A DNA stretch of 64,000 nt from Pirellulales bacterium (GCA_038210495.1 JBBQWR010000013.1:15310-79309), one strand, 5' to 3'. Positions 9,130-58,403 are shown, counted from the stretch's first letter. Notes: generated by a model from the sequence alone, not told the origin. Numbers and translations: made by a program.

Positions 9130-9500
9130 ACAGGCTGCGCGTCGTATGGCGGTCAAACTAACCTTGGCAAAGGGGTTTGACTTGCGGCGGTTAAATATTT
9201 CTTCATGGGCTCGCCCGAGCCCGTTTGAGCGATCTGCGCGTGCGACTTCGCGTCTATCCAGCCTATATTCCGGCGGCCGAGTCGTACGTCGGCGAAATCT
9301 GCCGGTTCTTCTGGCTTTCCTGCTTTTTCGGGTTGAGTTGATTCTCCGTTTAATCCGATTAAACCGGTGGTAGGCCTCGTGCGGAGTGCTAGCGGCCAGT
9401 TTTGCCGCAGCGGACTCACGGCGCGTACAAACTAACTCAACTCAAGTCGTTCCCAACCCACCAGTCGCTCAGGCGTTCGCCAAGCAGACGGAGACACGTC

Positions 9501-10778
9501 ATGAAGGTTTTGCAGTTGGCCGTTGCCGGCGTCGTGATTGCCGTGCTTTCCGCTCCGGTGCTCGCTCAACAAAACGGCTATGGCTATCCCGCCGGGCAAA
9601 TGTCGCCCTACGCCGGCGCCCAACGGGGCAACCCGCAGATGACGCCGGGTGGTTATCCGCCCGCAATGCAGGGCTATCCGCAAGCCGGCTATCCGCAAGC
9701 GGCGCCGGGACAAATGACGGCTGGCGAAATCCAGCAAGCCATGTACGGTCCACCTGGCCCACTAAGTGCTGGACCGATGCCGATGGACGGCAGCGCCGGC
9801 TACGGTCCAGGTGGTTGTGGACCCGGCGGCTGCGGACAGGGCGGAGGCGGTCAGGGTGGCTGCGGGCAAGGTGGCTGCGGCCCTGGCGCCCAATGCTACG
9901 ACGACGGCGCCACGCATTACATCTACGGCTCGGCCGAGTTGTTTTACGCCCGCCGGACTAATCAAGCGGTCAATCAAGCCCTCGTCGTCGACGCGGCTAC
10001 GCAAACGACGACCATTGTTTCGGCCGGCGATTTGGGTTTTCGCTATGAGCCGGGCGTTAAGGCCACGGCGGGTTATTTCTTCTCCGCCGGTTATGGGGTC
10101 GAGGGAACTTATTTCGGCCAGTTCGATCACAATACGACCGTCAGCGCGACCAGTCCCACGCCCTCGCTCTCGTTGCCAGGCGTTTTCGGGGCCGGTTCGA
10201 CCGACTTCACCGCCGTCGGGGCCATCTCAACCAATTACACCAGTCGAGTACATAACGCCGAAATCAATTTCATCATCCCTTACGGCAGCTTTCAGTACCT
10301 GATCGGCAGCCGATATTTGGAATTGGATGAAAAGCTCGACATCAACGGCACGGATTCGCTCGGCGGAACGTCGGGCGATTATGTAATTACGACCGCGAAC
10401 CATTTATACGGCGGCCAGCTCGGAGCCCGGGGTCAGTGGGAAATCGGCCGATTCATCTTCGACGCTGAAACGAAGGCCGGCGTGTACGCCAATTCGGCAA
10501 ATACGCATCAGAACATTACCGACGCCGGCGTCACCGCGCGGGATGTCGGCGCCCAGGAACGGCAAGTCGCCTTCGTCGGTGAAGTCGCCGTCTACGGGCT
10601 GATTCCGCTGGGCTCGAACTTCACTGCCCGGCTCGGTTACACCGGCATCTGGATCACCGACTTGGCCCTCGCGCCTGACCAATTCGACACCAGCACGGTA
10701 GCCGGCGCCTCGGCGATTTCGATGCGCGGCGCGACGATTATTCACGGCTTCAACGCCGGTATGGAATTCCGTTGGTAA
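9501..10778 (+). CDS. BBP7-family outer-membrane beta-barrel protein
   Basis: Start taken at the internal ATG (MKVLQLAVAGVVIAVLSAPVLAQQ signal peptide). A low-complexity P/Q/G/Y region and a Gly-Cys repeat come first. These are followed by alternating beta-strand-like sequence ending in …GFNAGMEFRW (C-terminal aromatic). Confidence 0.7.
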   Translation: MKVLQLAVAGVVIAVLSAPVLAQQNGYGYPAGQMSPYAGAQRGNPQMTPGGYPPAMQGYPQAGYPQAAPGQMTAGEIQQAMYGPPGPLSAGPMPMDGSAGYGPGGCGPGGCGQGGGGQGGCGQGGCGPGAQCYDDGATHYIYGSAELFYARRTNQAVNQALVVDAATQTTTIVSAGDLGFRYEPGVKATAGYFFSAGYGVEGTYFGQFDHNTTVSATSPTPSLSLPGVFGAGSTDFTAVGAISTNYTSRVHNAEINFIIPYGSFQYLIGSRYLELDEKLDINGTDSLGGTSGDYVITTANHLYGGQLGARGQWEIGRFIFDAETKAGVYANSANTHQNITDAGVTARDVGAQERQVAFVGEVAVYGLIPLGSNFTARLGYTGIWITDLALAPDQFDTSTVAGASAISMRGATIIHGFNAGMEFRW

Positions 10779-10781
10779 AAA

Positions 10782-13700
10782 TCAGGCCCGGGGCGCCGAT
10801 TTGACGTCGGCGGTCGCGGCGATTTGAGTTAAACGATCGCCGGCCCAAGCCAGCCAATCGGAACTTGGCCACGCATACGGACGGAATTTTTCCGCGCGGC
10901 CTTCTTCTTCGTTGTAATATAGCGCCAAATGCGGGCCGAGCTTGCCGGCGAGCGGCGTGTCGATCAGTTGGCTGGAGTCGGCGCCGCTCATCTGAAACAG
11001 CACGCGGAGATCGAACTCCCGAAGACCTTGGCGGTCGACGGTGCGGTTCAGATTGTTCAGCGTATCGCACCAGGTGATCGTGTAGACGCCCACCGCCGGT
11101 CCTTCTCGTAGGATATCGCTGAACTGCACTCCCGGGCTGACGGCCTTCGCCTCAGTACCAAACGAATAGCCGAATTCTTCTCCCTTGCGCAGATCTCGGA
11201 ACCGGCCGAGATCGTAGATGAATAAGTAAATCGCCGGCGCGTCGGCGTGATCGGTTGCTTGACGACGCTGGACTTCGGCCGCGATTTCGGCGATGACCTG
11301 GGGCACATCGCGACGGCCGGCGACACGAACCGGATGCGGAATGGTCGCAGCCAGCTCGGCCAGTGTCGGCCCCGGACGATCAGCGGCCCGCGTCGGTTCG
11401 AGCAGATAGAACCGGGCCTCGGACGTGAGCGCGTGACCACCATGCGAGCCATTGCCGTTGGTCGCGGCCGGTCGGTCATCGTCGTAGTCCGAATCGTGAG
11501 ACGCCTCGGGGCCAGCGCCGTTCGCCTGCGCCATGTTTCCGAGCGGGATGCCCGCCAGCGGCGATCCCAGCGACAATGAGCCGAGACCGCGCTCTGGTTC
11601 GGGCGGAGGCGGCGCGGGCAGCTTCCCTCTGGCGGGCAGCCGTTGGGCCGCAAGACTGAGCATGGCCGTGGCCAAGATCGCCCGGGCCGCCTCGTCGCGC
11701 TGGCCAATGATCAACAGATTACAACCATTTTGCGGACGGAACACGGCCGCAGTGGGATCCTTGATCGCGATCGCCTCGCCCATCCAGGCCGCCGGATCGC
11801 GGGGACCGCTGGGCAGCGAATCCGCCGAGAGCAGGGCGTGCAACAGTCGGTTCCGCGAGATGTCGGCTGGGACGTTGCCCTCGAACACGATTTGCTTCGG
11901 AACGAACGGCGGCACGCTGGCCATCGCCCGCTGGTGCAAGTCCTTCAAGTAAACCTCGCGCCGCTCGTCGGAAAGCCAAACGACTTGGAATGGGTTGTTG
12001 CCGATCACCATGCCGTTGGCGTCGTTGTAGATCGCCTCACCCGGCCGGGACAACAATCGGGCCGCCGAATTATCCTCGCTGAGGATCAAGTGGGCGTCGT
12101 TCTCGCTGCATTGCAGGGCGATGCGGACCGCCATCTGGCCGATCGTGCTTCGCGCCAAGCTGTAGGCGCCCCCAAGCGTCTGCGACCCGAGCATCACGTG
12201 AATGCCGAACGCGCGACCTTGCCGAACCAATCGATCGAGCAACAGCGTCGCGTCTTGAGCCAGCTTGTCGTCCTCGACAAACAGCTCTTGAAATTCGTCA
12301 ACGACCAATAACACGCGCGGCATCGTCGCTCCAGGCTGAGCACTGCGGAACGAAGCCAAGTCCTGCACGCCCAGGTTGCGAAACACATCGCCGCGGCGCT
12401 TCAGCTCCGCGTCCAAGCTTTGCAGCACGCTGATGCCGAACTCTCGCTCGCTTTCGATCGCGATGACCCGCGCGTGCGGCAATTCGTGGGTGGCATAAGT
12501 TTTGAACTCCACCCCCTTTTTGAAGTCGATCAGATACAACTCGATCTCGGCCGGGCTATAGGTCAGCGCCAGATTCGTGATCAGCGCATGCAAGAGCGTC
12601 GATTTGCCGGAGCCGGTTTTGCCGGCCACGAGCACGTGCTGCGAGGTACCATGCCCCAGCCGCAGATGCTGGAGCTTTGTGGCGCCCGCTCGGCCCAGCG
12701 GCACGTCGATGCCGTGCGAAGTGCTGCCCGCCCACCACTTGTCGTCGGCCGGCGCGATATACTCGAACGGGACTTGCACGCGGCGCGAGTCCTTCGCGTT
12801 CTCGCCCACGAGTTGGACGATCTGCGTGAATCGCTCCTCCGGCGGCGGAGTGTCGACCGTCAGTGGATATTTGCCCAAGTCGGGCTGCTTCCATTTGAAC
12901 GATTGCGCCTTGGCGTCCCACGTGAGATTTGTGCTATGGGCCTCGATGTCCTTCATGTCGAAACGCATCGGCAGCGGCTGACCGCTGTCGGTCGTCATCA
13001 GCACATACACTCCGCAGCGAGCCCCGCTGGCCGCGATGCTCGTCAGCCGACGGGCGGCGGATTCGGTGAAATTGACCGGAAAATTGGCGACGACCAAGAT
13101 ACGAAACGCCTCGGCCACTTCTCCCGCGAACACGTTGTATTCGGCGATCGATTGAAAATCGTTTCGCAAATACTTCTGGATCACGTTCTCCATCTGCTCG
13201 GTCAGATCGGCCAGCCGGGCTTCGATGTGCTGCGGCTCCGTCCAGATGCGATTGGTCACCAGCACGTCGTCGAAGTCGGCCAGATGCATGAAGCCGGCGA
13301 AGTTTTCGCCCAGCCCGACCGGATCGATAATCGTGTATCGCAGCTTGCCCGGCGGAATCGTCGCCAGCATCCGAAGCATGACCGATTGCAGGACTTGGAC
13401 GGCGGCGGCGCGCCCTTCGCCGGCGGCTTGAATCAAGAGCGACGCATTGTGCGGAAAAGGCAACAGCGCGGGCAGCGACAGCTCCGTCGGTCCCGGCGGC
13501 TGCAAACGCGCATCGCTCGAAATGCCGCCGCGAATCTGGTCCAGCCGAATCGTGGTGTCGCCGAACCGAATGGCCGGCGGCGGAATATCGGGCGGCGTCC
13601 AGGCTTGCCACCCCGGGCCATCCCAATCGGGAAAATATTTCTCGCTTTCGGCGGTCATCTCGGCCAGCACGGCATAAACCTGCTGCATGCCGGAGCGATA

Positions 13701-14918
13701 GTCCTGTTCGAGCGTGGCCCACTCGCTTTCGTGACGTTGACGGCTTTCCTTAAGCGATCGATCGTAGCGCGACTGCGCGTCGGCCGATTCTCGCTCGAAG
13801 CGCGTGCGGCGCTCGGCCAGCAGACCGGGATACTTTTCGTTCGAATCGCGTAGCATCGATTCACGACGAGCCACCAGATTGGCCTCGCGGCGGTGAAATG
13901 CGTCGTCGGCCTCGGTCAAGGTCCCGTCTCGATCGCTGATAATCTCGTTCATTCGCGTGAGCTGCCGCTCCTTGGCCTTGCGAATGTCTCGCCGGTGCCG
14001 TTTGGCCATTTTGGCCCATTGGGCTTCGTAATAAGCTTTCGCGTCGACCTGACATTGCTCTTTGAGAACGTCGCCGTCGGCCAGCGCTCGGCGAATCGCG
14101 GCGCACTTGGCGGCCGCTTGCGAGAACGCCCGGTGGTGCAGCCACAGCAATGCCGCGATGATCGCGACGGCCGACGACGCGACGCCGACGCCTAACTTGA
14201 GCCAAATGCTCGGCGCCAACAGAGCCGACATCGTCATCGCGAGCACGAAAATGGCCACGCCGATCAGCTGCGGACGGATGTCGATGAATAGCTTGGGCGC
14301 GACGAGGCGCTGCAGCTGGTCGAGCTCAACGATCGCCCGATCGGCGCACCGCGGGAATGCGCTAAACGGATCGCCGGCCGCGTCGACCGGCCGATCTTCG
14401 ATGGGCTGAGCTTCCCACGCCGCGTGCAGCCGGCACTTGTCGAGATACTGCCAAGTCAGGTCGACGATTTTGTTGAGCGACGCCGTTGTGCCGGCGACCT
14501 TGGCCTGAACCCGCTCGAATTGCTCGAGCAGGCCGGGATGGGCCGCCTCGAACACGGTCGTCGCCTGCCAGGTGTCCTGATCGAGTTGTTTGTTCGCTTC
14601 TTGTTCGCGATCGCTGTACTTCTCCTGCACGCGCTCGCGGGCTTCTTCGAGTTCCGCGGCGGCCGTGGCGTGTTGGCTTTGATAATCGTCGTTTGGGCTC
14701 GAGAGGGCCGCGTCGAATTGACGTTGTAACTCGGCGAGTTCGGCTTGGAACGACTTGGCCACCTGCTCGCGAGTGACGCGAAATTCGCGCTCGATCGTCT
14801 CCGTGCGATCGGCGAGCTCTTTATGAACGCGTTTTTCGGCGGCCTCGCGCTCGGCGGCCAAGCGGTGCAGATCGGCGAGCAGATTTCGCTGGTGCTCGAG
14901 CGATAGAAGACTAGTCAT
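10782..14918 (-). CDS. membrane-anchored FtsK/SpoIIIE-family ATPase with three P-loop modules (EssC/EccC-like)
   Basis: 1378 aa. Residues 1-215 are coiled-coil and two TM helices lie at about 216-262. The canonical Walker A GKTGSGKS is at nt 12600-12623 and Walker B LLVVDEF at nt 12291-12311. Flanking FtsK-like modules have degenerate P-loops (AAGEGRAAAV, IIGQRDEAARA). Confidence 0.85.
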   Translation of the reverse strand: MTSLLSLEHQRNLLADLHRLAAEREAAEKRVHKELADRTETIEREFRVTREQVAKSFQAELAELQRQFDAALSSPNDDYQSQHATAAAELEEARERVQEKYSDREQEANKQLDQDTWQATTVFEAAHPGLLEQFERVQAKVAGTTASLNKIVDLTWQYLDKCRLHAAWEAQPIEDRPVDAAGDPFSAFPRCADRAIVELDQLQRLVAPKLFIDIRPQLIGVAIFVLAMTMSALLAPSIWLKLGVGVASSAVAIIAALLWLHHRAFSQAAAKCAAIRRALADGDVLKEQCQVDAKAYYEAQWAKMAKRHRRDIRKAKERQLTRMNEIISDRDGTLTEADDAFHRREANLVARRESMLRDSNEKYPGLLAERRTRFERESADAQSRYDRSLKESRQRHESEWATLEQDYRSGMQQVYAVLAEMTAESEKYFPDWDGPGWQAWTPPDIPPPAIRFGDTTIRLDQIRGGISSDARLQPPGPTELSLPALLPFPHNASLLIQAAGEGRAAAVQVLQSVMLRMLATIPPGKLRYTIIDPVGLGENFAGFMHLADFDDVLVTNRIWTEPQHIEARLADLTEQMENVIQKYLRNDFQSIAEYNVFAGEVAEAFRILVVANFPVNFTESAARRLTSIAASGARCGVYVLMTTDSGQPLPMRFDMKDIEAHSTNLTWDAKAQSFKWKQPDLGKYPLTVDTPPPEERFTQIVQLVGENAKDSRRVQVPFEYIAPADDKWWAGSTSHGIDVPLGRAGATKLQHLRLGHGTSQHVLVAGKTGSGKSTLLHALITNLALTYSPAEIELYLIDFKKGVEFKTYATHELPHARVIAIESEREFGISVLQSLDAELKRRGDVFRNLGVQDLASFRSAQPGATMPRVLLVVDEFQELFVEDDKLAQDATLLLDRLVRQGRAFGIHVMLGSQTLGGAYSLARSTIGQMAVRIALQCSENDAHLILSEDNSAARLLSRPGEAIYNDANGMVIGNNPFQVVWLSDERREVYLKDLHQRAMASVPPFVPKQIVFEGNVPADISRNRLLHALLSADSLPSGPRDPAAWMGEAIAIKDPTAAVFRPQNGCNLLIIGQRDEAARAILATAMLSLAAQRLPARGKLPAPPPPEPERGLGSLSLGSPLAGIPLGNMAQANGAGPEASHDSDYDDDRPAATNGNGSHGGHALTSEARFYLLEPTRAADRPGPTLAELAATIPHPVRVAGRRDVPQVIAEIAAEVQRRQATDHADAPAIYLFIYDLGRFRDLRKGEEFGYSFGTEAKAVSPGVQFSDILREGPAVGVYTITWCDTLNNLNRTVDRQGLREFDLRVLFQMSGADSSQLIDTPLAGKLGPHLALYYNEEEGRAEKFRPYAWPSSDWLAWAGDRLTQIAATADVKSAPRA

Positions 14919-14963: not shown

Positions 14964-15185
14964 TCAATTGCAATCTCGCTGCGCCCGTTCGAGGACGTCG
15001 GCCAAGCGGGAAATCGCGTCGAGGGTCAGATGCACCTTCGGCTCGAGCGGCGCGAGATGGTCCTCTTCGAACCGGCGGCTGGCCACGTCTTGCCACTGGT
15101 CCTTCGTTTCCTGCCAATGCAGCATTAGGTTCTTAAGCGACTCGGAGAGCTTGGTCGCGCCCGAGACGAGATCGCCGGCAATCAT
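14964..15185 (-). CDS. small helical protein, WXG100-like (WxD variant)
   Basis: 73 aa. The motif WQDVASRRFEED parallels WRDQEQKKFLED of the 90-aa protein upstream. Its ATG overlaps the stop of the preceding gene (ATGA). Confidence 0.5.
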   Translation of the reverse strand: MIAGDLVSGATKLSESLKNLMLHWQETKDQWQDVASRRFEEDHLAPLEPKVHLTLDAISRLADVLERAQRDCN

Positions 15186-15895
15186 GAGGGGGCCTCCGAG
15201 ACGTGCGGCGCCGCGACTTCCAAAGTGGATGTCTCGCTTACGACAGGATCCGAATTCTCGTCCGGCGCTATCGGCTTCTCGGCGCTGTCCGCGGGATCGC
15301 TATCGGTCGGAATCCTGTCTGACGGATTGGCCATCGAGCGACATTCCTCGGCGCGATCGATATGCGATTGCGACATGGCGCGCGGAGCGATCGTCGAAAA
15401 ATACGTATCCAGAGCCGCCAGGATCCGATCCATTGAGGCCATCGCTTTGGGCAGATCGCCGTCGAGCAGGGCGGCGAACTGCGACATCCGGCCGATGTAT
15501 TCGTTCAACTCGTGTTGCACGGCGCGGGTCCATTTTTTCACCGCCTCGGCCTTTTGCTCGGCGAGCTTGAGCCGGTCCTGAGCGCGCTGCAAGGCTTTCT
15601 GCTCGTCGATGCACGAAGGCGTGTAGCCGTCCATGCCTTTGAACGTCCGGGCGTTGTGCAAGTCGTCGCGAGCCCGCGCTACGGCTTCCATGGCCCGGCG
15701 AATTTCGCTTCGCCAAAATTGAGCCCGATCGACGGCGATGTAGTCGTAAGCCCGGCGGATTTCGACTTCGAGGCCGATGACCCCTTTTTTCGACTCGGCG
15801 ACATAGCTCGCCAGCGCGCCGCGAAAATCCTGCAAGGCGGCCAGAGAATGAACGTGGGCTTTTTCGTGCATAATTGCCGCGACAATGGCCGCCAA
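15182..15895 (-). CDS. helical protein of unknown function (possible secretion-system substrate or adaptor)
   Basis: 237 aa with a TTG start preceded by GAGG. The N-terminal helical region contains FWRSEIRRAM (same W..+8 hydrophobic spacing). The C-terminal tail is acidic and Pro/Ser-rich. Confidence 0.5.
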   Translation of the reverse strand: MAAIVAAIMHEKAHVHSLAALQDFRGALASYVAESKKGVIGLEVEIRRAYDYIAVDRAQFWRSEIRRAMEAVARARDDLHNARTFKGMDGYTPSCIDEQKALQRAQDRLKLAEQKAEAVKKWTRAVQHELNEYIGRMSQFAALLDGDLPKAMASMDRILAALDTYFSTIAPRAMSQSHIDRAEECRSMANPSDRIPTDSDPADSAEKPIAPDENSDPVVSETSTLEVAAPHVSEAPS

Positions 15896-15932: not shown

Positions 15933-16205
15933 CTACCGCTGCTGGAGATATTCCTCCGCGCGTTCGGCTTTGCGAATCAAGTACGGGACATACTGATCGG
16001 TCGACTCGACGAATCGACGCAGCACTTGAATTTGCTGCTCGAAGTCCTCGAGGAATTTCTTTTGTTCTTGATCGCGCCAGGTGGACCCCAAGCCGGCGAC
16101 CTGCCGCTGGACCACCGCCATTTGGTTAAGCAGTTCGCCCGTGAACTGCTTCAGATTGTGAGCGAAACGACGGACTTCGCCCGGATCGACAATTGCCTGC
16201 GACAT
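15933..16205 (-). CDS. WXG100-family-like protein (90 aa)
   Basis: Internal ATG at 16205 of track ORF 15933..16625. The sequence is MSQAIVDPGEVRRFAHNLKQFTGELLNQMAVVQRQVAGLGSTWRDQEQKKFLEDFEQQ…. Size, two-helix layout and the W(+8)F spacing match the WEGASSEAF hairpin of B. subtilis YukE (recalled from memory). Confidence 0.6.
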   Translation of the reverse strand: MSQAIVDPGEVRRFAHNLKQFTGELLNQMAVVQRQVAGLGSTWRDQEQKKFLEDFEQQIQVLRRFVESTDQYVPYLIRKAERAEEYLQQR

Positions 16206-16554: not shown

Positions 16555-17259
16555 TTATCTGAGTCCCTCGAACAACGCCGAACCGACTCGCACGATCGTG
16601 GCGCCTTCTTCGATCGCGACTTCAAAATCGCCGCTCATTCCCATCGAAAGTTCGCGAAACGAGATGTTCGGCGGCGCCGTTTGGCTGAGGCGATCGCGCA
16701 GCTCTCGCAGTTGGCTGAATTCTCGCCGGGCGTCGCCCAAATTTCCCTCTCGACCGGCCATCGTCATGAGTCCTTGCACGTCGACGTGCTTGAATTTGGC
16801 AATCTGCGTTAGGTTGGCGGCCATCTCATCCGGCTTGAATCCATGCTTCGTCTGGTCTCCGGAGATATTGACCTCCAGCAGAATCGGCGCCGCTTGGCCC
16901 AAGACTGCGGCGGCCGTGTCGATGGCGACGATCAGTCGCAAGCTATCGGCCGAATGAATCAGCGAGACAAGCGGCAGGGTTTGCTCGATCTTGTTCCGCT
17001 GTAGATGGCCGATCAAGTGCCACTGGATTGGTAGCGCCTGAAGCGAGTGCGCCTTGCTCCAAAGCTCTTGCGGCCGGGCCTCGCCGAGGTGGATGTTTCC
17101 GCTAAAATCAAGCACGCGGGCCAGTTCGCCAGCCACCTGCGAGTCGACATACTTGGTGACCGCCACGAGCGTGACGGCATCCGCCGGGTGCCCACTGCGT
17201 GCCGCGGCCGCGGCGATTTGTTCTCGGACCCGGGCGACATTGTCTTCCAATCGCGACAT
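16555..17259 (-). CDS. yggS: YggS-family pyridoxal-phosphate homeostasis protein
   Basis: 234 aa. [10 protein letters not shown] (PLP lysine), [38 protein letters not shown]-like C-terminus. Confidence 0.85.
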   Translation of the reverse strand: [234 protein letters not shown]

Positions 17260-31778: not shown

Positions 31779-34505
31779 TCACTTCGGAGCCGCCTCTGCG
31801 TCGTCAACCTCCGTCGGAATCGCCGGCGGTGAGGCGAGAAATACGGGGCAATGGGCGTGCTCCAGCAGATAATCGAGCCAAGGCGCCGTCGGATTCCCCG
31901 TGTCGTCCGCCCATCGCGTGGGCATCGAGGCGATGATCAGATTGTACTGCCCCTCGCGGGCGCACCGAACGATCTCCGGCGCCGTGTCGCCGCCGATCGT
32001 GAGGACATTCATTTCGCGACCCAACTGCGAAGCCCGCTTTCGGTCGAAGCCGAGTGCTTGTTGAATTTCGTCGATAGACGCTTGCTTGTCGGGCGCGACA
32101 ATCAAATCCAGGTCGACTTTAGGATCGAGCATCGTCAGCACGGATTGAAACAGATCGTGGCTCGCCGCGCTGCCGTTGTAAACGAGCAGCACGCGACTGA
32201 CGCCGACGCCCGCGGCGCGGAGTTCCGCGACGTTCCGTGCCTGCCGCTCGCTGATCTTGGGAATTCGATTGCCTCCGGCCAAGTCGAGATGCACTTCGCG
32301 GTCGCGGCTCACGATCCGCACCGTGAGCGGTCGAGGCACGTCGGCGTTCACGTTGAACCAGTAGAGCGCCACCTGGTCGAGTTGTTCGTCGGCCGTGTTC
32401 TTGTTCGACACGCCGATCACCAGTTCTTGGGCGCCCAAAGCCTTGGCTGTGTTGATCACGGCGAACAACGGATTGTTCGTGGGCACAATGAGCGGGATGA
32501 CCTCCTTGCCGGATTTTTCCGCGCGATCGACGACGGCCGTCATCAGCTTGGTATCGTATTTGTCCAAATCTTGCGGAACGCGCTCGGTACCGACGCCCGG
32601 CTCGAACTTGGCGGTCATGACCACGACCGACGTGGTTTTGGGGTCGGATTCGAGGAGCGCCTTTTCGAGCATGAACAGGTTTTGCGGGGAGCGAATAGCG
32701 ACCAATTTGACAAAGGGCTTGTCGATGCGCAGTTTCTCGCGAGAGATTTCGTCGGCCGTCGCCTGGTTGAACTGCTCCTGATGATCGTGATGGGCTCCCT
32801 TGAGACGCCGTTCATGAGCCTTCTCGCTGACGACGAATATCATCAAAAACCCAGCGGTAAATCCAAGGCCCCAGGTCGTCGCCGTTTCCTTGGTGAGCAA
32901 ATTGGTGATCGCGGCCGCCGCCAGGACCAGGAAAATCAGAATCAGACCGACGGGAATTTCCAACTTGCCGATCCGAACATTGAGCGGCACCTTATAGTCT
33001 CGATGCGTGTGCTGCTTAAATCGCAGCACGACCATGGCCAGCGCTTTGAATACGAAGCTCCACACGACGCCGAAGGCATAGGCTTCGCCGAGCACGAGCG
33101 TGTCGCCCCGGCTGGCGACGATCGTGAAAAGTTGAAAGATGACAACCAGCGCGAGGATTCGGTAAGTCGTGCCGTATTTTCGATGCGGCTTGAGAAACCA
33201 ATCCGGCATGACGCCGTCCTCGGCGACGCGGTTCAAGACCCCGTTCGATCCGATGATCGCCGTATTGACGGCGCCCGATAGAATTAGAAATCCAATGAAC
33301 ACGACAAACGCCTGGAGCGCCAAGAGTGCCCAATTCGGACCAATCACGTTCATCGCCAAACCGCCGATGAGATTGTCGCGGTAGAGCGACATTCGCTGGT
33401 CGTCGGGAATCAGCAGCACCGCCAAAAAACTGATGCCGGCCGTCAACACCATGCTATAGACAAAGACCACGAAGGCGGCCTTCTTGAAATTCAACATCTT
33501 CGGCGCCTCGACTTCGCGATAAACCTGCGCGAGCGTCTCCTCGCCACTCATCGCCAGGATCGAGTGCCCAAACGCCACGGCGATCCCCAATAGCCCGACG
33601 AGACTCAGCCAATCTCGTTTCGGCGTCGAGGGGGCGGACAACTCGCGAAGTCGTTCGTCGACCCCCGTGTTCTCCAGATAACCGAGCGGACTTTCTTCCT
33701 TGGGCGGATCGGTCGAAAAATTCGGATGCGGTCGAAGGTCCGGCAGCATGGGCACGTGGTTGGTTTTGCCGTCTTTGCTCTTCGCGGCGACCAGGTCGGT
33801 GAACGTCGTGCCTGGCTGACCGATCAAATCGCGGCGCTCCCAGGCGTTGGACGCCAGCGTGGCCCCACACCACACGAGAATCACGACCGCCATGACGGTG
33901 GTGGCCTTCATGATCTTCACGGCCTTGTCGCTCGATTCGTGGATGCCTTTGATGTTCTCCCGAAAGAAATAAAGCGTGGCGCCACAGGCGATGACCACGG
34001 CGCCCCCGTTTGTGATACTGTCGCGCGCCTCCTTGGCGACCGCGAAACCGGAGTGGCCGAAAAGATAATGCTCGGCGTAAACGAACAGGTCGATTCCCAG
34101 GCCCATGATGTACTGGCCCGCCGAGACGCCGCTGATGGGGCCGGTGAGGATGTAGTCGAACATCAGGGCCGAGACGGAGAGTTTTGCCAGCCAGCCTCCC
34201 ATGGCTTCTTTTACCACGCGATACACGCCGCCGCGGACGAACAGTGAGCAGCTTTCGATGTACACGCTGCGCACAGCGTAGCTAAACATCATTACGGCCA
34301 AGATGAACCACGGCGCCGCGGCCCCGATCGATTGCTCGACGATCCCGCCGATGTAATAAGCCGTGCTGGCCAGATCGCACAGCACCACCGCGGCGGTCCG
34401 CCAGTAGGAGATGAACTTGAACATCACGCTGTTTACGACGATCACGTTCGCAGCGCGCGTGTTACCGCTAGAACTGGCCGGGCCAGCGCCCTCAGGAGAC
34501 GACAT
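31779..34505 (-). CDS. APC-superfamily permease fused to C-terminal tandem universal-stress-protein (USP) domains, KimA/YdaO-like; paralog 1
   Basis: Start set at MSSPEGAGP by homology with paralog 2; the track's GTG start 30 nt upstream lies in the conserved leader. About 12 TM segments. GGVYRVVKEAMGG…FDYILTGPISGVSAG resembles the KimA GGAYIVSKENLG…VDYILTVAVSISAG region (recalled from memory). Confidence 0.8.
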   Translation of the reverse strand: MSSPEGAGPASSSGNTRAANVIVVNSVMFKFISYWRTAAVVLCDLASTAYYIGGIVEQSIGAAAPWFILAVMMFSYAVRSVYIESCSLFVRGGVYRVVKEAMGGWLAKLSVSALMFDYILTGPISGVSAGQYIMGLGIDLFVYAEHYLFGHSGFAVAKEARDSITNGGAVVIACGATLYFFRENIKGIHESSDKAVKIMKATTVMAVVILVWCGATLASNAWERRDLIGQPGTTFTDLVAAKSKDGKTNHVPMLPDLRPHPNFSTDPPKEESPLGYLENTGVDERLRELSAPSTPKRDWLSLVGLLGIAVAFGHSILAMSGEETLAQVYREVEAPKMLNFKKAAFVVFVYSMVLTAGISFLAVLLIPDDQRMSLYRDNLIGGLAMNVIGPNWALLALQAFVVFIGFLILSGAVNTAIIGSNGVLNRVAEDGVMPDWFLKPHRKYGTTYRILALVVIFQLFTIVASRGDTLVLGEAYAFGVVWSFVFKALAMVVLRFKQHTHRDYKVPLNVRIGKLEIPVGLILIFLVLAAAAITNLLTKETATTWGLGFTAGFLMIFVVSEKAHERRLKGAHHDHQEQFNQATADEISREKLRIDKPFVKLVAIRSPQNLFMLEKALLESDPKTTSVVVMTAKFEPGVGTERVPQDLDKYDTKLMTAVVDRAEKSGKEVIPLIVPTNNPLFAVINTAKALGAQELVIGVSNKNTADEQLDQVALYWFNVNADVPRPLTVRIVSRDREVHLDLAGGNRIPKISERQARNVAELRAAGVGVSRVLLVYNGSAASHDLFQSVLTMLDPKVDLDLIVAPDKQASIDEIQQALGFDRKRASQLGREMNVLTIGGDTAPEIVRCAREGQYNLIIASMPTRWADDTGNPTAPWLDYLLEHAHCPVFLASPPAIPTEVDDAEAAPK

Positions 34506-34605
34506 GGGATTTCGATTCGGGACAGCAGGTCCCACTCGGATTCAGACACGACGCCCGTGCGACAGCAGTGCCCTTTTCAATTTCGGCGCCCAGACACTTG
34601 CTGGG

Positions 34606-35174: not shown

Positions 35175-37898
35175 TTACGGCCCCGCCTTCGGCTCTATGG
35201 CGTCACCTTCGTCGACTTCCATCGGAATCGCCGGCGGCGAAGCTGGGAATACCGTGCAATGGGCGTGGTCGATCACAAAATCGATCCAAGGCGCCGTCGA
35301 CTCGTCGTCTCCTTCGGACAACCGCTCGTGCTTCGCGAGAACAATCAGATTGTAGTGGCCGTCGCGGGCCCGCTTGACGATCTCTGGCCCAATGTCGTCG
35401 GTCAGCGTGACGACGCTCATTTCACGGCCAAGTTGCAATGCCCGCTGGCGATCGACTTCGACCGCATGCTGGACTTCGCCGGGCGCCAAATGAGGCTCCG
35501 GAACAATGAGCAGGTCCAATTCGACTTTGGGATCCAGCATCGTCAAGACGGTTTGAAACAAATCGTGGCTGGCCGCGCTACCGGTATGAACCGACAGCAC
35601 GCGGCTGACGCCGACTCCGGCCGCGCGCAATTCGGCGACGCTTCGCGCCTGCCGCTCGCTGATTTTGGGAATCCGGTTGCCGCCGGCCAAATCGAGATGC
35701 ACTTCGCGATCGCGGCTGACGATCCGCACCGTTAGGGGCTTCGGCTGATCGGCGTTGACGTTGAACCAATAGAACGCGACTTGATCGAGTTGCTCGTCGG
35801 CCGTGTTCTTGTTCGAGACCCCGATCACCAGTTCTTGGACATCCAGCGCCTTGGCCGTGTTGATCACCGCGAAAAGCGGGTTGTTCGTCGGCACGATCAG
35901 CGGAACGACTTCCTTGCCGGACTTCTCGGCCCGCTGCACGACGGCGGTCATCAGCTTCGCGTCGTATTTGTCGAGGTCGCCCTGGGGCCGCTCGGTGACA
36001 ACGCCCGGCTCGATCTTGGCCGTCATGACGACAATCTCGGTCGTGGTGGGATCGGATTCCGCCAAGGCCTTTTCCAGCATGAACAGATTTTGCGGCGAGC
36101 GGATCGCCACGAGCTTCGTGTATTTCTTCTTGAGCCCCAGCTTAGCGCGACTGATTTCGCTGGCCGTCTCTTGGTTGAACTGCTCTTGGTGATCGTGATG
36201 AACGCCCTTGAGCCGGCGCAAGTGGGCCTTTTCGCTGGCGATGAAGATCGTCAGAAAACCGGCCGTGAATCCGAGTCCCCAAATCGTGGCGGTTTCCTTG
36301 GTCAGCAGATTCGTGATGGCCGCCAACAGCAGAATGACGAACACCAGGATCAACCCGACGGGAATCTCGATCTTTCCGATGCGGAAATTGAGCGGCACCT
36401 TGTATTCGCGAGTCGAAGTATCCCTAAACCGCAGCACGACCATCGCGAGCGAGTTGAACACGAAGCTCCATACTACGCCGAACGCATACGCCTCGCCGAG
36501 CACGAGCGTATCGCCGCCGCTGGCGATGATCGTCACCAATTGAAAGGCGACGACCAAAATAAGAATTCGGTAGCTCGTGCCGTATTTGCGATGCGGCTTG
36601 AGAAACCAATCGGGCATGACGCCGTCTTCGGCCACGCGGTTCAGCACGCCGTTGGAGCCGATGATTGCCGTATTAACCGCTCCGGAAAGAATCAAGAAGC
36701 CAATGAACACGACAAAGGCTTGCAGAATCAAGCGAGCCCACATCGGCCCGACCATGTTCATCGCCAAGCCGCCGATGAGATTGTCGCGATAGATCGGCAT
36801 CCGCTGATCCTCGGGTATCAGCAGCACGGCCAAGAAGCTGATGCCCACGGTCAGCACGATGCTATAGACGAAAACGACGAAGGCCGCTTTCTTGAAATTC
36901 TTCATCTTTGGCGCCTCGACCTCGCGAAAAACCTGCGCCAAGGTCTCTTCGCCGCTCATCGCCAAGATCGAATGGCCAAACGCCACGATGATGCCGAAGA
37001 CTCCGATCCAACTGAGCCAGTCCGACTTCGGCGTGGACGGGTCGGACAACTGGCTCAGTTCCTTGTCGATCGGCTTGCCCTCCAAAAATCCGAGTGGGCT
37101 TTCTTCCTTGCCGGTCGTCGTGTTCAGATGCGGTCGCAGGTCGGGAAGCACGGGCAACTTATTGCGAACGATGACTTCCTTGCCGTCCTGCAACACGACG
37201 TTTCCGTGCTGATCCTTGAGCTTGTAAGTCGCGACGCCTTGCACGGCCAACGTGACCGCACACCAGGTCATGATCACGACCGCCATGATCGTGGTGGCCT
37301 TCATGATCTTTATGGCCTTGTCGCTCGATTCGTGGATACCCTTGATGTTTTCCCAGAAGAAGTACAGCGTCGCGGCGCAGGCGATGAAAACGGCGCCGTA
37401 ATTCGTTAGCGTCTCGCGCGTCGTTTTGAGGACGGTAAACGCGGGGTGATTCAAGAGATACCGCTCGGCGTACTCGAACGAATCGATCCCCAGACCCATG
37501 ATGTACTGGCCGGCGGAGACGCCGCTGATCGGTCCGGTCAGAATGTAATCGAACATCAGTGCCGAGACGGAGAGCTTGGCGAGCAGGCCGCCCATCCCGG
37601 CCTTCACGGCCCGGTAAACGCCCCCACGGACGAACATCGAGCAGCTTTCGATGTACACATTCCGCACGGCGTAGCTGAAGATCATCACGGCCAGGATGAA
37701 CCAAGGCGCCGCGGCGCCGATCGACTGCTCGACGATCCCGCCGATGTAATAGGCCGTGCTGGCCAGATCGCACAGCACCACGGCGGCCGTCCGCCAGTAG
37801 GAAATGAACTTGAACATCACGCTGTTTACGACAATTACGTTCGCAGCGCGCGAGCTACCGCCCGTGCTGGCCGGGCCAGCGTCCTCAGGAGACGACAT
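35175..37898 (-). CDS. APC-superfamily permease fused to C-terminal tandem USP domains, KimA/YdaO-like; paralog 2
   Basis: 907 aa and collinear with paralog 1. The N-terminal ~140 aa are almost identical (…VIVVNSVMFKFISYWRTAAVVLCDLASTAYYIGGIVEQSIGAAAPWFILAVM…). Confidence 0.8.
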   Translation of the reverse strand: MSSPEDAGPASTGGSSRAANVIVVNSVMFKFISYWRTAAVVLCDLASTAYYIGGIVEQSIGAAAPWFILAVMIFSYAVRNVYIESCSMFVRGGVYRAVKAGMGGLLAKLSVSALMFDYILTGPISGVSAGQYIMGLGIDSFEYAERYLLNHPAFTVLKTTRETLTNYGAVFIACAATLYFFWENIKGIHESSDKAIKIMKATTIMAVVIMTWCAVTLAVQGVATYKLKDQHGNVVLQDGKEVIVRNKLPVLPDLRPHLNTTTGKEESPLGFLEGKPIDKELSQLSDPSTPKSDWLSWIGVFGIIVAFGHSILAMSGEETLAQVFREVEAPKMKNFKKAAFVVFVYSIVLTVGISFLAVLLIPEDQRMPIYRDNLIGGLAMNMVGPMWARLILQAFVVFIGFLILSGAVNTAIIGSNGVLNRVAEDGVMPDWFLKPHRKYGTSYRILILVVAFQLVTIIASGGDTLVLGEAYAFGVVWSFVFNSLAMVVLRFRDTSTREYKVPLNFRIGKIEIPVGLILVFVILLLAAITNLLTKETATIWGLGFTAGFLTIFIASEKAHLRRLKGVHHDHQEQFNQETASEISRAKLGLKKKYTKLVAIRSPQNLFMLEKALAESDPTTTEIVVMTAKIEPGVVTERPQGDLDKYDAKLMTAVVQRAEKSGKEVVPLIVPTNNPLFAVINTAKALDVQELVIGVSNKNTADEQLDQVAFYWFNVNADQPKPLTVRIVSRDREVHLDLAGGNRIPKISERQARSVAELRAAGVGVSRVLSVHTGSAASHDLFQTVLTMLDPKVELDLLIVPEPHLAPGEVQHAVEVDRQRALQLGREMSVVTLTDDIGPEIVKRARDGHYNLIVLAKHERLSEGDDESTAPWIDFVIDHAHCTVFPASPPAIPMEVDEGDAIEPKAGP

Positions 37899-57566: not shown

Positions 57567-57648
57567 GCCTCTATATACTCGCAAAAACGAAAAAGGTTCC
57601 GCGCGATCGAGAAAATTTCCGAAAATAGTTTCGCGCTCGTCTCTCCTC

Positions 57649-58002
57649 TCACGCCGGAAGGCGATAACGCGCTTGACGAGTGACGCTGGACAACTCGACG
57701 CCGTCCAAGAGCATGGCCAGGTCGGTCGCCGAAATCGTCACGCTCGCCGCATCCTGCTCCGGGCGCGGGAAGCGAAAGCGCCCTTGTTCCAAGCGCTTGT
57801 ACCAAATCGCATAGCCGTGCGCGTCCCACCACAGAATCTTCACCCGGTCGGCCCGCTTGCCGCGGAACACGAACAGATGACCCGACAGAGGATCGAGCTG
57901 GAGCGTCTCTTGGACGAGCGCCGCCAAGGTATCGAAGCTCTTCCGCATGTCGGTTGGCTGCGCGGCCAGAAACACTTTCACCGAGCCGCTGACGCTCAAC
58001 AT
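57649..58002 (-). CDS. tnpB: IS66 accessory protein TnpB (IS66 Orf2-like)
   Basis: 117 aa from the internal ATG: MLSVSGSVKVFLAAQPTDMRKSFDTLAALVQETLQLDPLSGHLFVFRGKRADRVKILWWDAHGYAIWYKRLEQGRF. Confidence 0.9.
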   Translation of the reverse strand: MLSVSGSVKVFLAAQPTDMRKSFDTLAALVQETLQLDPLSGHLFVFRGKRADRVKILWWDAHGYAIWYKRLEQGRFRFPRPEQDAASVTISATDLAMLLDGVELSSVTRQARYRLPA

Positions 58003-58403
58003 GATCGCGGCTCCAAGAGTTCCAGCACCGCGCGCAAGGCGGCCGTCTCCCGCGCCGGCACGCGGACCAGCAGCCCGCTGGGCAAGGAGACTTCCACGTG
58101 ACTTGTCCCGGGCCCAGCGATCGTGACGGGCAGAAAGCGCGGCGCGGCTGTCGCTGTGTGAGCTGTCGCTGGGCGGCCAGCGGCCTGGGTTTCGCCAGGA
58201 GCAGTTCGGTCCGCGACGGAATCGCGCCGGGCGAGCTCGCTCCGCCAGCCATAAAACGATGGCTCGGAGAGCCCGGCCTGGGCACAGTAACCGCGGATCG
58301 TCAGGCCGCTTCGCCGCTGCCGCTCGACGTGCCGCCACCACAATCGCTCTTTAGCCTCACTCCGGCCCGGTCCGCGGCCCGTCGAGTATCGCGCTTCGCT
58401 CAT
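57996..58403 (-). CDS. tnpA: IS66 accessory protein TnpA (helix-turn-helix OrfA)
   Basis: MSEARYSTGRGPGRSEAKERLWWRHVERQRRSGLTIRGYCAQAGLSEPSFYGWRSEL…. It overlaps the tnpB start by 7 nt. Confidence 0.85.
   Translation of the reverse strand: MSEARYSTGRGPGRSEAKERLWWRHVERQRRSGLTIRGYCAQAGLSEPSFYGWRSELARRDSVADRTAPGETQAAGRPATAHTATAAPRFLPVTIAGPGTSHVEVSLPSGLLVRVPARETAALRAVLELLEPRSC

What the first reader, a model, noticed from the sequence alone, without database searches (positions are those of the whole stretch)
11424..14918. Unusual architecture of the FtsK/SpoIIIE ATPase: only the middle P-loop is canonical, with a long N-terminal coiled coil and a disordered insert
Manual residue mapping gives the following layout.
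- Residues 1-215 are a heptad-rich cytoplasmic coiled coil that precedes the two TM helices (about 216-262; nt 14133-14273).
- Residues 263-430 form a second coiled coil.
- Module 1 has AAGEGRAAAV in place of Walker A (nt 13398-13430) and FRILVVANFP as a Walker-B-like strand.
- Module 2 has a perfect GKTGSGKS / LLVVDEF pair.
- Module 3 has IIGQRDEAARA (nt 11679-11711) and IYLFIYDLG.
- A Pro/Gly/Asp-rich insert of about 70 aa (nt 11424-11636) interrupts module 3.

In characterised EccC/EssC it is the first module that is catalytically essential, and no long coiled coil precedes the TM segments. This protein is therefore either a divergent lineage or a functionally different machine. It lacks the 4-TM N-terminus and the C-terminal gamma (KOPS-binding) domain of the chromosome translocase FtsK.
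Basis: partly seen in the sequence, partly recalled or inferred. Interest (0 to 1): 0.55.

Follow-up and report, generated by a model that had tools for sequence, protein, structure and literature searches.

The report
Planctomycete three-domain type VII-like secretion ATPase
This gene encodes a membrane-anchored EssC/EccC-type motor protein, one ATPase-like domain short of the usual four, that sits in a four-gene cassette with WXG100-type small proteins conserved across Planctomycetota, so it most likely belongs to an uncharacterised minimal variant of the type VII protein export system and is not a chromosome pump.

Summary

- **Fold:** all three modules are FtsK-type P-loop folds.
- **Active site:** only module 2 keeps Walker A and Walker B. 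It matches domain D1 of EccC/EssC.
- **The "middle-only" pattern is expected, not anomalous.** EccC/EssC also carry a degenerate ATPase-like "DUF" domain ahead of D1.

What is unusual:
- There are three P-loop folds, not the four reported for T7SSa-j.
- A conserved 215-aa helical cytoplasmic N-domain and a roughly 180-aa helical linker flank the two TM helices. I found no heptad periodicity, so a canonical coiled coil is not shown.
- No known T7SS accessory membrane genes lie nearby.
- The cassette WXG100(90 aa)–~230 aa–~73 aa–ATPase is present in 48 of 56 evaluable loci from Pirellulales, Gemmatales, Isosphaerales, Planctomycetales and Phycisphaerae.

The Pro/Gly/Asp insert is a lineage-specific loop of low model confidence and is absent from 10 of 14 orthologues.

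Verdict: a new variant of a known kind, a planctomycete type VII-like (WXG100) system. Secretion itself is inferred, not shown.

The parts
10782..14918 (-). Whole gene: 1378-aa membrane-anchored EssC/EccC-like ATPase with three P-loop-fold modules
   Evidence: ORF and translation. Pfam FtsK_SpoIIIE E 7e-33. NCBIfam best hits are EccCa, EssC and EccCb, all far below their cutoffs. 13 full-length orthologues at 59-71% identity.
14274..14918 (-). N-terminal cytoplasmic helical domain, res 1-215, with the invariant motif W117..TVFEA.HPGLLEQ
   Evidence: 32% charged and 4.7% Pro+Gly. Periodicity 3.65 with no 3.5 peak. Conserved in orthologues. phmmer alignments of family ORFs start at res 1-15 in most loci. 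No Pfam or PDB sequence hit.
14133..14273 (-). Two transmembrane helices, about res 217-238 and 240-260, joined by a very short loop of variable length
   Evidence: KD 19-residue window above 1.6 only here; maximum 2.26. Loop length varies among orthologues.
13587..14132 (-). Helical linker, res 263-444, between TM2 and the first P-loop fold. It takes the place of the short EccC stalk.
   Evidence: 38% charged and 3.6% Pro+Gly. No significant 3.5 periodicity. No PDB hit.
12744..13586 (-). Module 1, res 445-725: degenerate FtsK-type P-loop fold in the DUF/D0 position. Walker A-like AAGEGRAAAV; Walker B-like LVVANFP.
   Evidence: AF2 pLDDT 92.1. Foldseek: FtsK motor 2iut/2ius E 1.4e-9 with TMq 0.61-0.63; EssC 4lya; EccC 4n1a; EccC5 DUF 8rin E 1e-4. 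hhalign versus EssC: D2 95.7%, D1 94.6%, DUF 84.3%. The degenerate motifs are conserved family-wide.
11919..12743 (-). Module 2, res 726-1000: canonical ATPase, equivalent to D1. Walker A GKTGSGKS (res 766-773); Walker B LLVVDEF (res 870-876).
   Evidence: Pfam and NCBIfam. PDB phmmer aligns it to D1 of T. curvata EccC (302-480) and of EccC5 (490-670). hhalign to EssC D1 100%, E 6.6e-40. G, GK and DEF are invariant even in distant relatives.
10785..11918 (-). Module 3, res 1001-1378: degenerate FtsK-type P-loop fold at the C-terminus. GQRDEAARA replaces Walker A; FIYDL keeps the Asp.
   Evidence: AF2 pLDDT 85.9. Foldseek: EssC D2-3 4lya E 9e-11; EccC 4nh0; FtsK; EccCb1 domains with TMt 0.64-0.70. 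hhalign to EssC D2 97.7%, E 2.5e-12.
11424..11636 (-). Pro/Gly/Asp-rich insert, res 1095-1165, in the loop between helix alpha-1 and strand beta-2 of module 3. Lineage-specific.
   Evidence: 31% Pro+Gly. pLDDT about 50 with no secondary structure. Absent from 10 of 14 orthologues and shorter in P0002, P0010 and P0011.
14964..15185 (-). 73-aa small helical protein, a probable divergent WXG100-like hairpin. Its start overlaps the stop of the upstream gene by 4 nt.
   Evidence: Pfam WXG100 E 0.053 over profile positions 13-77. In-register W.D...(K/R)F.E match to the 90-aa family, but weak (hhalign 14%, E 0.002). Found upstream of the ATPase in most related loci.
15182..15895 (-). 229-237-aa protein (start TTG at 15895 or ATG at 15871). 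Conserved N-terminal region of about 150 aa, probably helical, followed by a variable acidic/Pro-rich tail. Candidate substrate.
   Evidence: No Pfam or PDB hit. No TM segment. Conserved in position in related loci.
15933..16205 (-). 90-aa WXG100-family protein with W-R-D in place of W-x-G and a highly conserved C-terminal tail (P.LLRKAERIEEYLQQR)
   Evidence: Pfam WXG100 31.9 bits against a cutoff of 27.3. PDB phmmer: EsxB 4j42 E 1e-4 and HP0062 E 2e-3 to 4e-3 (3fx7, 2gts), with the Trp aligned. Family consensus.

Best explanation
**What it is.** The gene encodes the motor ATPase of a planctomycete-type WXG100 (type VII-like) export cassette.

**Shown here**
- It is an EssC/EccC-family protein.
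- A two-helix membrane anchor places the N-domain and all three P-loop folds in the cytoplasm.
- Only the D1-equivalent module keeps the residues needed for ATP hydrolysis.
- The gene is tightly and widely linked to one WXG100 gene, one WXG100-like gene and one roughly 230-aa gene, all without Sec signals or TM segments.

**Inferred by analogy with EccC/EssC**
- The protein forms a hexamer in the cytoplasmic membrane.
- Module 2 supplies the energy.
- Degenerate module 1 acts like the DUF domain, as a structural, oligomerisation or gating element under the membrane.
- Degenerate module 3 serves as a docking or regulatory domain for a conserved substrate tail, for example the invariant C-terminus of the 90-aa protein.
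- The small helical proteins are exported, alone or as a bundle with the roughly 230-aa protein, across the cytoplasmic membrane into the planctomycetal periplasm.
- The helical N-domain and long linker replace the FHA domains or accessory partners of other T7SS.
For: **Identity of module 2**
- D1-type match to EccC/EssC.
- hhalign 100%, E 6.6e-40.

**Modules 1 and 3**
- Both are confident FtsK/EssC-type folds.
- Both lack the Walker A Lys across the family.

**Topology**
- Two TM helices.

**WXG100 partner**
- The 90-aa protein passes the Pfam threshold and matches EsxB structures.

**Cassette conservation**
- The WXG100-mid-small-ATPase order holds in three orthologue loci whose flanks are unrelated.
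- It is present in 48 of 56 evaluable genome loci across several planctomycete orders.
- Distant three-module relatives P0016 and P0018 also lie next to WXG100 genes.

**Small proteins**
- They have no TM segment.

**Literature**
- WXG100 plus an EssC/EccC ATPase are the two components common to all T7SS (PMC10765036, PMC11217815).
- DUF is a degenerate ATPase (PMC11154593).
Against: - No secretion has been shown for any WXG100/FtsK pair in a Gram-negative (PMC10765036).
- No EccB/D/E/MycP, EssA/EssB/EsaA or ubiquitin-like EsaB/YukD gene lies in the window or in the cassette neighbourhoods. The ATPase would have to form the channel alone or with unlinked partners.
- It has three NTPase-like domains, whereas every T7SSa-j ATPase described has four (PMC11217815).
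- Scores are far below the NCBIfam EccC/EssC cutoffs.
- The W-x-G glycine is replaced, and the canonical C-terminal HxxxD/ExxhxxxH pattern is not cleanly present (read off the consensus printed).
- Module 1 resembles D1/D2 more than DUF in both sequence and structure, so its DUF equivalence rests on position only.
- 6 of 56 loci lack the small genes upstream.
- Planctomycetes are diderm, and no outer-membrane step is evident.
Confidence: 0.6

Rival explanations
1. The cassette is a non-secretory cytoplasmic or membrane machine. The ATPase, with its long helical N-domain and linker, acts on the inner face of the membrane, for example in envelope or membrane remodelling, budding division, or assembly of a helical scaffold. 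The WXG100-like hairpins and the roughly 230-aa protein would then be regulators or clients rather than exported cargo.
For: - Phylum-wide, mostly single-copy conservation in varied housekeeping contexts.
- No toxin/immunity or accessory membrane genes nearby.
- The periplasmic loop between the TM helices is minimal.
- The large conserved helical domains have no counterpart in known T7SS.
Against: - Every characterised WXG100 plus EssC/EccC pairing is a secretion system (PMC10765036, PMC11217815).
- D1 is conserved and catalytically intact, as in translocating motors.
- No positive evidence exists for any alternative activity.
Confidence: 0.25
2. It is a DNA translocase of the FtsK/SpoIIIE/TraB kind, acting in chromosome segregation or conjugative DNA transfer.
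For: - Pfam FtsK_SpoIIIE hit.
- The module folds match the FtsK motor and the TcpA coupling protein.
- Some database sources name family members 'DNA translocase FtsK'.
Against: - No FtsK_4TM, alpha or gamma domain.
- The FtsK equivalog score is 23.5 against a cutoff of 1566, while the EccC/EssC models score above 100 bits.
- It has three tandem modules, two of them dead.
- It is linked to WXG100 genes.
- A separate canonical FtsK of 750-900 aa is reported to be conserved across Planctomycetes and essential (PMC6952346).
- A bona fide FtsK query matches only module 2 within the window.
Confidence: 0.04
3. It is a component of an anti-phage defence system, SspH-like or mad8-like.
For: PADLOC hits to SspH (E 1e-29) and mad8 (E 3e-21) over module 2. 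Weak hits of the N-terminal region to LeoBC and ZorA.
Against: - The hits cover only the generic FtsK-type ATPase core or compositionally biased helical regions.
- No nuclease or modification genes are present in the cassette.
- The cassette is conserved in core-genome contexts across a whole phylum rather than patchily in defence islands.
Confidence: 0.03

Closest known systems
EccC (T7SSa, Actinomycetota), e.g. M. tuberculosis EccC5 and T. curvata EccC
   Same: - Two N-terminal TM helices.
- A cytosolic helical connection to a degenerate ATPase-like first domain.
- A canonical D1. The best PDB sequence matches are to D1 of 4nh0 and 7np7.
- No FHA domains.
- Paired with WXG100-type genes, here two as in T7SSa.
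   Different: - Three P-loop folds instead of four.
- The C-terminal module lacks the Walker A Lys.
- A 215-aa helical domain precedes TM1.
- A helical linker of about 180 aa replaces a short stalk.
- No EccB, EccD, EccE or MycP genes nearby.
- Module 1 is structurally closer to true FtsK domains than to the EccC5 DUF (E 1e-9 against 1e-4).
- 115 bits against the 509-bit cutoff of TIGR03924.
EssC / TsxC (T7SSb-j, Bacillota), e.g. S. aureus EssC, B. subtilis YukB, G. thermodenitrificans EssC
   Same: - A cytoplasmic N-terminal domain ahead of the TM helices.
- The DUF-D1 order.
- Degenerate distal domains. The top Foldseek hit of module 3 is EssC D2-3, 4lya.
- A WXG100 core partner.
- Small WXG100-like helical partner proteins flanking a larger helical substrate recall the Lap/LXG arrangement (PMC10765036).
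   Different: - The N-domain is helical, not FHA.
- One NTPase-like domain fewer. All T7SSc-j ATPases are reported to have four (PMC11217815).
- No EsaA, EssA, EssB or EsaB/YukD.
- No LXG or toxin/immunity genes.
- The host is diderm.
FtsK / SpoIIIE DNA translocases
   Same: The RecA-like FtsK-type fold is present in all three modules. Module 2 has canonical Walker A and B.
   Different: No 4-TM domain, no alpha subdomain hit and no gamma (KOPS-binding) domain. The modules are tandem and two are dead. The gene sits in a WXG100 context.
WXG100/FtsK-SpoIIIE pairs noted in Gram-negative phyla (Sutcliffe 2011 and Unnikrishnan et al. 2017, as cited in PMC10765036)
   Same: Co-occurrence of a WXG100 gene and an FtsK/SpoIIIE-family gene outside Actinomycetota and Bacillota, without functional confirmation.
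   Different: I could not read those papers, so I do not know whether they describe this family. The three-module architecture, the conserved four-gene cassette and its phylum-wide spread did not appear in any paper retrieved.

Membership tests
EssC/EccC type VII secretion ATPase | Catalytically competent FtsK/SpoIIIE-type domain equivalent to D1 | tested here: met
   Walker A GKTGSGKS and Walker B VVDEF are invariant. The best matches are D1 of EccC and EssC. hhalign 100%, E 6.6e-40.
EssC/EccC type VII secretion ATPase | Two TM helices N-terminal to the ATPase domains | tested here: met
   Hydropathy peaks occur only at about res 217-238 and 240-260. This rests on a simple hydropathy scale; no dedicated topology predictor was available.
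EssC/EccC type VII secretion ATPase | Degenerate ATPase-like DUF domain between the TM helices and D1 | tested here: met
   Module 1 has the fold (pLDDT 92.1; Foldseek hits include EccC5 DUF 8rin and the YukB core plus DUF 9qks). It lacks the Walker A Lys and Ser/Thr and the Walker B Asp-Glu. Caveat: it is closer to D1/D2 than to DUF, so the equivalence is positional.
EssC/EccC type VII secretion ATPase | Four cytosolic NTPase-like domains (DUF, D1, D2, D3) | tested here: not met
   Only three modules fit between res 445 and the C-terminus at 1378. The same holds across the family, whose typical length is 1300-1400 aa. T7SSa-j all have four (PMC11217815, PMC11154593).
EssC/EccC type VII secretion ATPase | Genetic linkage to a WXG100 gene | tested here: met
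   A Pfam WXG100 gene lies about 1 kb upstream. The linkage is conserved in L001-L003. All three small genes, the WXG100 gene among them, lie upstream in 48 of 56 evaluable loci.
EssC/EccC type VII secretion ATPase | Curated family score (TIGR03924 EccCa, TIGR03925 EccCb, TIGR03928 EssC) | tested here: not met
   115.4 against 509; 101.3 against 347; 104.5 against 778 bits.
EssC/EccC type VII secretion ATPase | Co-encoded accessory membrane components (EccB/D/E/MycP or EssA/EssB/EsaA/EsaB) | tested here: not met
   None among the Pfam hits of neighbours in the window or in L001-L003. Only the neighbourhoods were examined, not whole genomes.
EssC/EccC type VII secretion ATPase | ATPase-dependent export of WXG100 substrates | not testable with these tools
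   Needs genetics and fractionation.
FtsK DNA translocase | N-terminal 4-TM domain, alpha/beta motor and C-terminal gamma (KOPS-binding) domain | tested here: not met
   No PF13491, PF17854 or PF09397 hit, although bona fide FtsK proteins in the same search do carry them (P0057, P0059). NF007615 scores 23.5 against a cutoff of 1566 bits.
WXG100 (for the 90-aa protein at 15933..16205) | About 100 aa, family profile match, and a Trp-x-Gly turn motif | tested here: inconclusive
   The length and the Pfam threshold are met (31.9 bits against 27.3). EsxB structures match with the Trp aligned. However, the family consensus is W-R-D, so the Gly is not conserved. The hairpin fold was not modelled.

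The most novel reading that the evidence does not exclude
Planctomycetota carry a phylum-wide, streamlined type VII-like export system. Its only dedicated membrane component would be a three-domain EssC-like ATPase with built-in helical scaffolding. This would be either an ancestral form or a reduced form of the T7SS. It would move WXG100-type helical bundles into the unusually large planctomycetal periplasm of a diderm cell, extending type VII secretion beyond Gram-positive and mycolate bacteria.
Probability: 0.4. Interest if true: 0.72.

Novelty: new variant of a known kind. Interest (0 to 1): 0.55.

Why it matters
Type VII secretion is treated as a feature of Actinomycetota and Bacillota. 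The reported occurrences in Gram-negatives are few and untested.

This family is large. A module 1 profile finds 3111 clusters at 50% identity with E <= 1e-3, of which 1269 reach E <= 1e-30. At least 550 loci occur in the genome collection (one genome per species).

The family is conserved across the main planctomycete orders. It comes as a compact four-gene cassette with only one membrane protein.

If it exports proteins, it would give the smallest known T7SS-like machine. That would make it a useful system for asking what the ATPase alone can do: pore formation, substrate recognition without D3, and the role of dead P-loop domains. It would also add a Sec/Tat-independent route to planctomycete cell biology.

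If it does not export proteins, it shows that WXG100 plus EssC-like pairs can have another function.

The result also warns against annotating these genes as "DNA translocase FtsK".

Tried and rejected
1. **HMM-versus-PDB sequence search with the module 1 profile.** The top hits were spurious uridine phosphorylase matches. FtsK, EssC and EccC came in only at E 0.3-1.8. The search was too insensitive, so I replaced it with hhalign and structure prediction.
2. **The same search with the module 3 profile.** Only non-significant EccC5 hits, so D2 versus D3 could not be assigned this way.
3. **D2 versus D3 assignment by hhalign.** It favours D2 (97.7%) and gives about 4% for D3. My D3 block was cut crudely from an unverified alignment, so I treat 'D3 was lost' as unproven.
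4. **A home-made a/d heptad occupancy score.** It did not separate the helical regions from the globular ones. I replaced it with Fourier analysis.
5. **The look-up of encoding contigs for the window protein itself.** Not on record. I used orthologues instead.
6. **Homology of the N-domain or linker to the small proteins or to each other.** None found; probabilities were <=1%.
7. **The 73-aa protein as a ubiquitin-like YukD/EsaB.** No Pfam hit, and the sequence pattern looks helical. Rejected, though not structurally tested.
8. **Essentiality of a family member in P. limnophila.** The supplements of PMC10632474 hold no SpoIIIE, FtsK or WXG term. Whether that species has the gene is unknown.
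9. **Unnikrishnan et al. 2017 and Sutcliffe 2011.** Not available to read.
10. **BBP7 porin-like neighbour as an outer-membrane partner.** Rejected because it is absent from L001-L003.

Full report
**1. The observation**

The window holds one long ORF on the minus strand, 10782..14918, of 1378 aa. GC3 is 0.76, like its neighbours. There are 13 full-length orthologues at 59-71% identity.

| Motif | Residues | Window nt |
|---|---|---|
| AAGEGRAAAV | 498-507 | 13398-13427 |
| FRILVVANFP | 605-614 | 13077-13106 |
| GKTGSGKS | 766-773 | 12600-12623 |
| LLVVDEF | 870-876 | 12291-12311 |
| IIGQRDEAARA | 1070-1080 | 11679-11711 |
| IYLFIYDLG | 1230-1238 | 11205-11231 |

Hydropathy gives exactly two TM-grade segments, at about res 217-238 and 240-260.

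The finding's lower coordinate (11424) is the edge of the insert, not the end of the gene.

**2. Are modules 1 and 3 FtsK-like folds?**

Pfam sees only one FtsK_SpoIIIE domain, at res 758-913. I therefore tested the other two modules separately.

Internal profile-profile comparisons were in register but modest:
- module 1 versus module 2: 53%, E 1.3e-4
- module 3 versus module 2: 85%
- module 1 versus module 3: 73%

I deepened the alignments with two further database searches. I then predicted structures.
- Module 1 (res 445-725, 33 sequences): mean pLDDT 92.1, pTM 0.89.
- Module 3 (res 1001-1378, 78 sequences): mean pLDDT 85.9.

Foldseek against the PDB:
- Module 1: FtsK motor domains (2iut, 2ius, 6t8b; E about 1.5e-9, TMq 0.61-0.63), EssC D2-3 (4lya), and EccC (4n1a, 4nh0). 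Further down come the EccC5 DUF domain (8rin, E 1e-4) and the B. subtilis T7SSb core with DUF (9qks).
- Module 3: EssC D2-3 (4lya, E 9e-11), EccC (4nh0), FtsK, and EccCb1 domains with TMt 0.64-0.70.

I also compared the modules with profiles cut from 27 canonical EssC/EccC-like proteins, most of them FHA-bearing, found.

| Module | vs DUF | vs D1 | vs D2 |
|---|---|---|---|
| 1 | 84.3% | 94.6% | 95.7% |
| 2 | 94.4% | 100% (E 6.6e-40) | 99.8% |
| 3 | 94.8% | 95.6% | 97.7% (E 2.5e-12) |

All three modules are FtsK-type P-loop folds.

**3. State of the active sites**

In module 2, the Walker A residues G, G, GK and the Walker B residues DEF are invariant. This holds even in the three distant relatives P0016-P0018.

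The hhalign register lets module 1 be read against module 2:
- Walker A Lys corresponds to Ala506.
- Walker A Ser corresponds to Val507.
- Walker B Asp-Glu corresponds to Ala-Asn.

Module 3 has GQRDE(A/S)A with no Lys, but it keeps an Asp in FIYDL. These degenerate motifs are conserved across the family. They are a stable feature, not decay.

**4. Why "only the middle P-loop is canonical" is not an anomaly**

EccC and EssC have four cytosolic P-loop-fold domains. The first is the "DUF". It is a degenerate ATPase that lacks the Walker A Lys and Ser/Thr and the Walker B Glu, and it does not bind ATP (PMC11154593). The ESX-5 structure paper calls it the first NBD (PMC8131196). The catalytically essential D1 is therefore the second fold in those proteins as well.

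Here the order is TM – helical linker – degenerate fold – D1. Module 2 aligns best to D1 of T. curvata EccC (302-480) and of EccC5 (490-670).

One caveat applies. Module 1 looks more like a genuine FtsK domain than like DUF in both sequence and structure. Its equivalence to DUF is therefore positional, and common descent is not demonstrated.

**5. What really differs**

- *Domain count.* There are three P-loop folds, not four. A survey of T7SSc-j states that each ATPase has four predicted NTPase domains, as in T7SSa and T7SSb (PMC11217815). Family members are typically 1300-1400 aa with module 1 at about res 445-750, so the three-domain state is ancestral to the family. Module 3 is closest to D2. 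I regard "D3 was lost" as unproven, because my D3 block was crude.
- *N-terminal domain.* Res 1-215 form a conserved cytoplasmic domain. It is 32% charged and poor in Pro/Gly, and it carries the invariant motif W117..TVFEA.HPGLLEQ. In related loci the family ORFs align from res 1-15.
- *Linker.* Res 263-444 form a second helix-prone segment where EccC has a short stalk.
- *Periodicity.* Neither segment shows heptad periodicity. Alignment-averaged hydrophobicity peaks at period 3.65. Power at 3.5 is matched or exceeded by 80% and 46% of shuffles. They may be helical bundles or non-heptad coiled coils. No PDB or Pfam relative was found.
- *TM loop.* The loop between the TM helices is only a few residues long and varies in length.
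- *Insert.* Res 1095-1165 (31% Pro+Gly, pLDDT about 50) lies in the loop after helix alpha-1 of module 3. It is absent from 10 of 14 orthologues. It is a lineage-specific floppy loop, not part of the family architecture.

**6. Genomic context**

Four genes lie in a row on the same strand.
- A 90-aa gene at 15933..16205. It passes the Pfam WXG100 threshold (31.9 bits against 27.3). It matches EsxB structures (4j42, E 1e-4) and H. pylori HP0062, with the Trp aligned.
- A 229-237-aa gene at 15182..15895, with no known family.
- A 73-aa gene at 14964..15185, whose start overlaps the previous stop by 4 nt. It has a weak full-length WXG100 match (E 0.053). It also has an in-register W.D...(K/R)F.E match to the 90-aa family, but this is weak (hhalign 14%, E 0.002).
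- The ATPase gene, 45 nt further on.

None of the three small proteins has a TM segment.

The same order recurs in three orthologue loci whose flanks are unrelated. It also recurs in 48 of 56 evaluable loci from the genome collection. Six loci lack the small genes upstream.

The carriers are labelled as follows:
- Pirellulales
- Gemmatales
- Isosphaerales, including the complete genome of Singulisphaera sp. Ch08
- Planctomycetales
- Thermoguttaceae
- Phycisphaerae

A module 1 profile finds 3111 clusters at 50% identity with E <= 1e-3, and 1269 of these reach E <= 1e-30.

Distant three-module relatives have other N-termini. P0016 and P0018 again sit next to WXG100 genes, together with Ser/Thr kinase and PP2C genes. 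P0017 carries a fused kinase domain.

No EccB/D/E, MycP, EssA/B, EsaA or YukD-like gene appears in any neighbourhood examined. The convergent BBP7 porin-like gene in the window is not conserved elsewhere.

**7. Not FtsK**

There is no 4-TM, alpha or gamma domain, although true FtsK proteins in the same search do show them. The FtsK equivalog scores 23.5 bits against a cutoff of 1566.

A bona fide FtsK query matches only module 2 in the window. I could not scan the source genome. The literature reports a canonical FtsK of 750-900 aa that is conserved across Planctomycetes and essential (PMC6952346).

**8. Mechanism**

*Shown:*
- family identity
- topology
- one live ATPase site and two dead ones
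- conserved linkage to WXG100-type genes

*Inferred by analogy:*
- The protein forms a hexamer in the membrane.
- Module 2 drives the machine.
- Module 1 is a DUF-like structural or gating ring.
- Module 3 is a docking or regulatory domain. It may bind the very conserved C-terminal tail of the 90-aa protein (P.LLRKAERIEEYLQQR).
- The hairpins are exported into the periplasm, possibly bundled with the roughly 230-aa protein. That arrangement would recall Lap-LXG complexes (PMC10765036).

I put 0.6 on this reading as a whole. The family assignment is much firmer than the secretion claim.

*Rivals:*

| Rival | Confidence |
|---|---|
| Non-secretory membrane-associated role | 0.25 |
| DNA translocase | 0.04 |
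| Defence system | 0.03 |

The PADLOC hits behind the defence rival are generic ATPase-core or helical-composition matches.

**9. Novelty**

Reviews note that a few WXG100 genes occur beside FtsK/SpoIIIE genes in Gram-negatives, with no functional confirmation (PMC10765036, citing Sutcliffe 2011 and Unnikrishnan 2017, which I could not read).

My literature searches found nothing that describes a planctomycete system, its three-domain ATPase or the four-gene cassette. The library is incomplete, so this is absence in what I could search.

I classify the finding as a new variant of a known kind.

Noticed in passing
window 31779-34535 (-) and 35175-37898 (-): Two neighbouring genes of about 910 aa are 76.6% identical over about 900 aa. 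Both combine AA_permease_2 with a long C-terminal extension, so they look like a recent tandem duplication.
   Followed up: partly
window 55914-57584 (-): An IS66-family transposase (DDE_Tnp_IS66, E 4e-76). An overlapping upstream ORF at 57563-58285 was not examined.
   Followed up: no
window 9402-10778 (+): A BBP7 (putative beta-barrel porin) gene converges on the ATPase gene, with their stop codons 3 nt apart. It is not conserved next to orthologues in L001-L003, so it is probably unrelated.
   Followed up: partly
proteins P0061-P0180: Many database 'proteins' of this family are fragments of 150-550 aa with odd Cys/Arg-rich C-termini, on contigs up to 6.6 Mb. They look like gene calls broken by frameshifts in long-read assemblies rather than real short proteins.
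   Followed up: partly
L079; L015, L057, L059, L081: Loci labelled 'Candidatus Kuenenia stuttgartiensis' (60.6% GC) and 'uncultured Alcaligenaceae' carry the planctomycete-type gene at 55-58% identity. They are probably mis-binned or mislabelled MAG contigs.
   Followed up: partly
L084 (P0018), L085 (P0016), L086 (P0017): Distant relatives share the same three-module core but have other N-termini, one of them a fused Ser/Thr kinase. P0016 and P0018 sit next to WXG100, Pkinase and PP2C genes. This resembles the kinase-associated T7SSc/d clusters of Gram-positives.
   Followed up: partly
L026 and L042: One MAG (Planctomycetota CB11b_AW.61) carries two copies of the family, each with the small genes upstream.
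   Followed up: no
L007, L025, L032, L039, L066, L079: Six loci with enough upstream sequence lack recognisable WXG100, mid or small genes ahead of the ATPase. Two of them are Schlesneria MAGs. The partners may lie elsewhere or may be missing.
   Followed up: partly
window 15871-15895 (-): The start of the roughly 230-aa gene is ambiguous. The longest ORF starts at a TTG at 15895, and an ATG (MHEKAH...) follows 8 codons later at 15871. Orthologue lengths of 227-238 aa do not decide between them.
   Followed up: no
window 16555-17259 (-): A YggS-type PLP-binding gene (Ala_racemase_N) lies directly upstream of the cassette, with a gap of about 350 nt. It is not conserved next to orthologous cassettes.
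   Followed up: no
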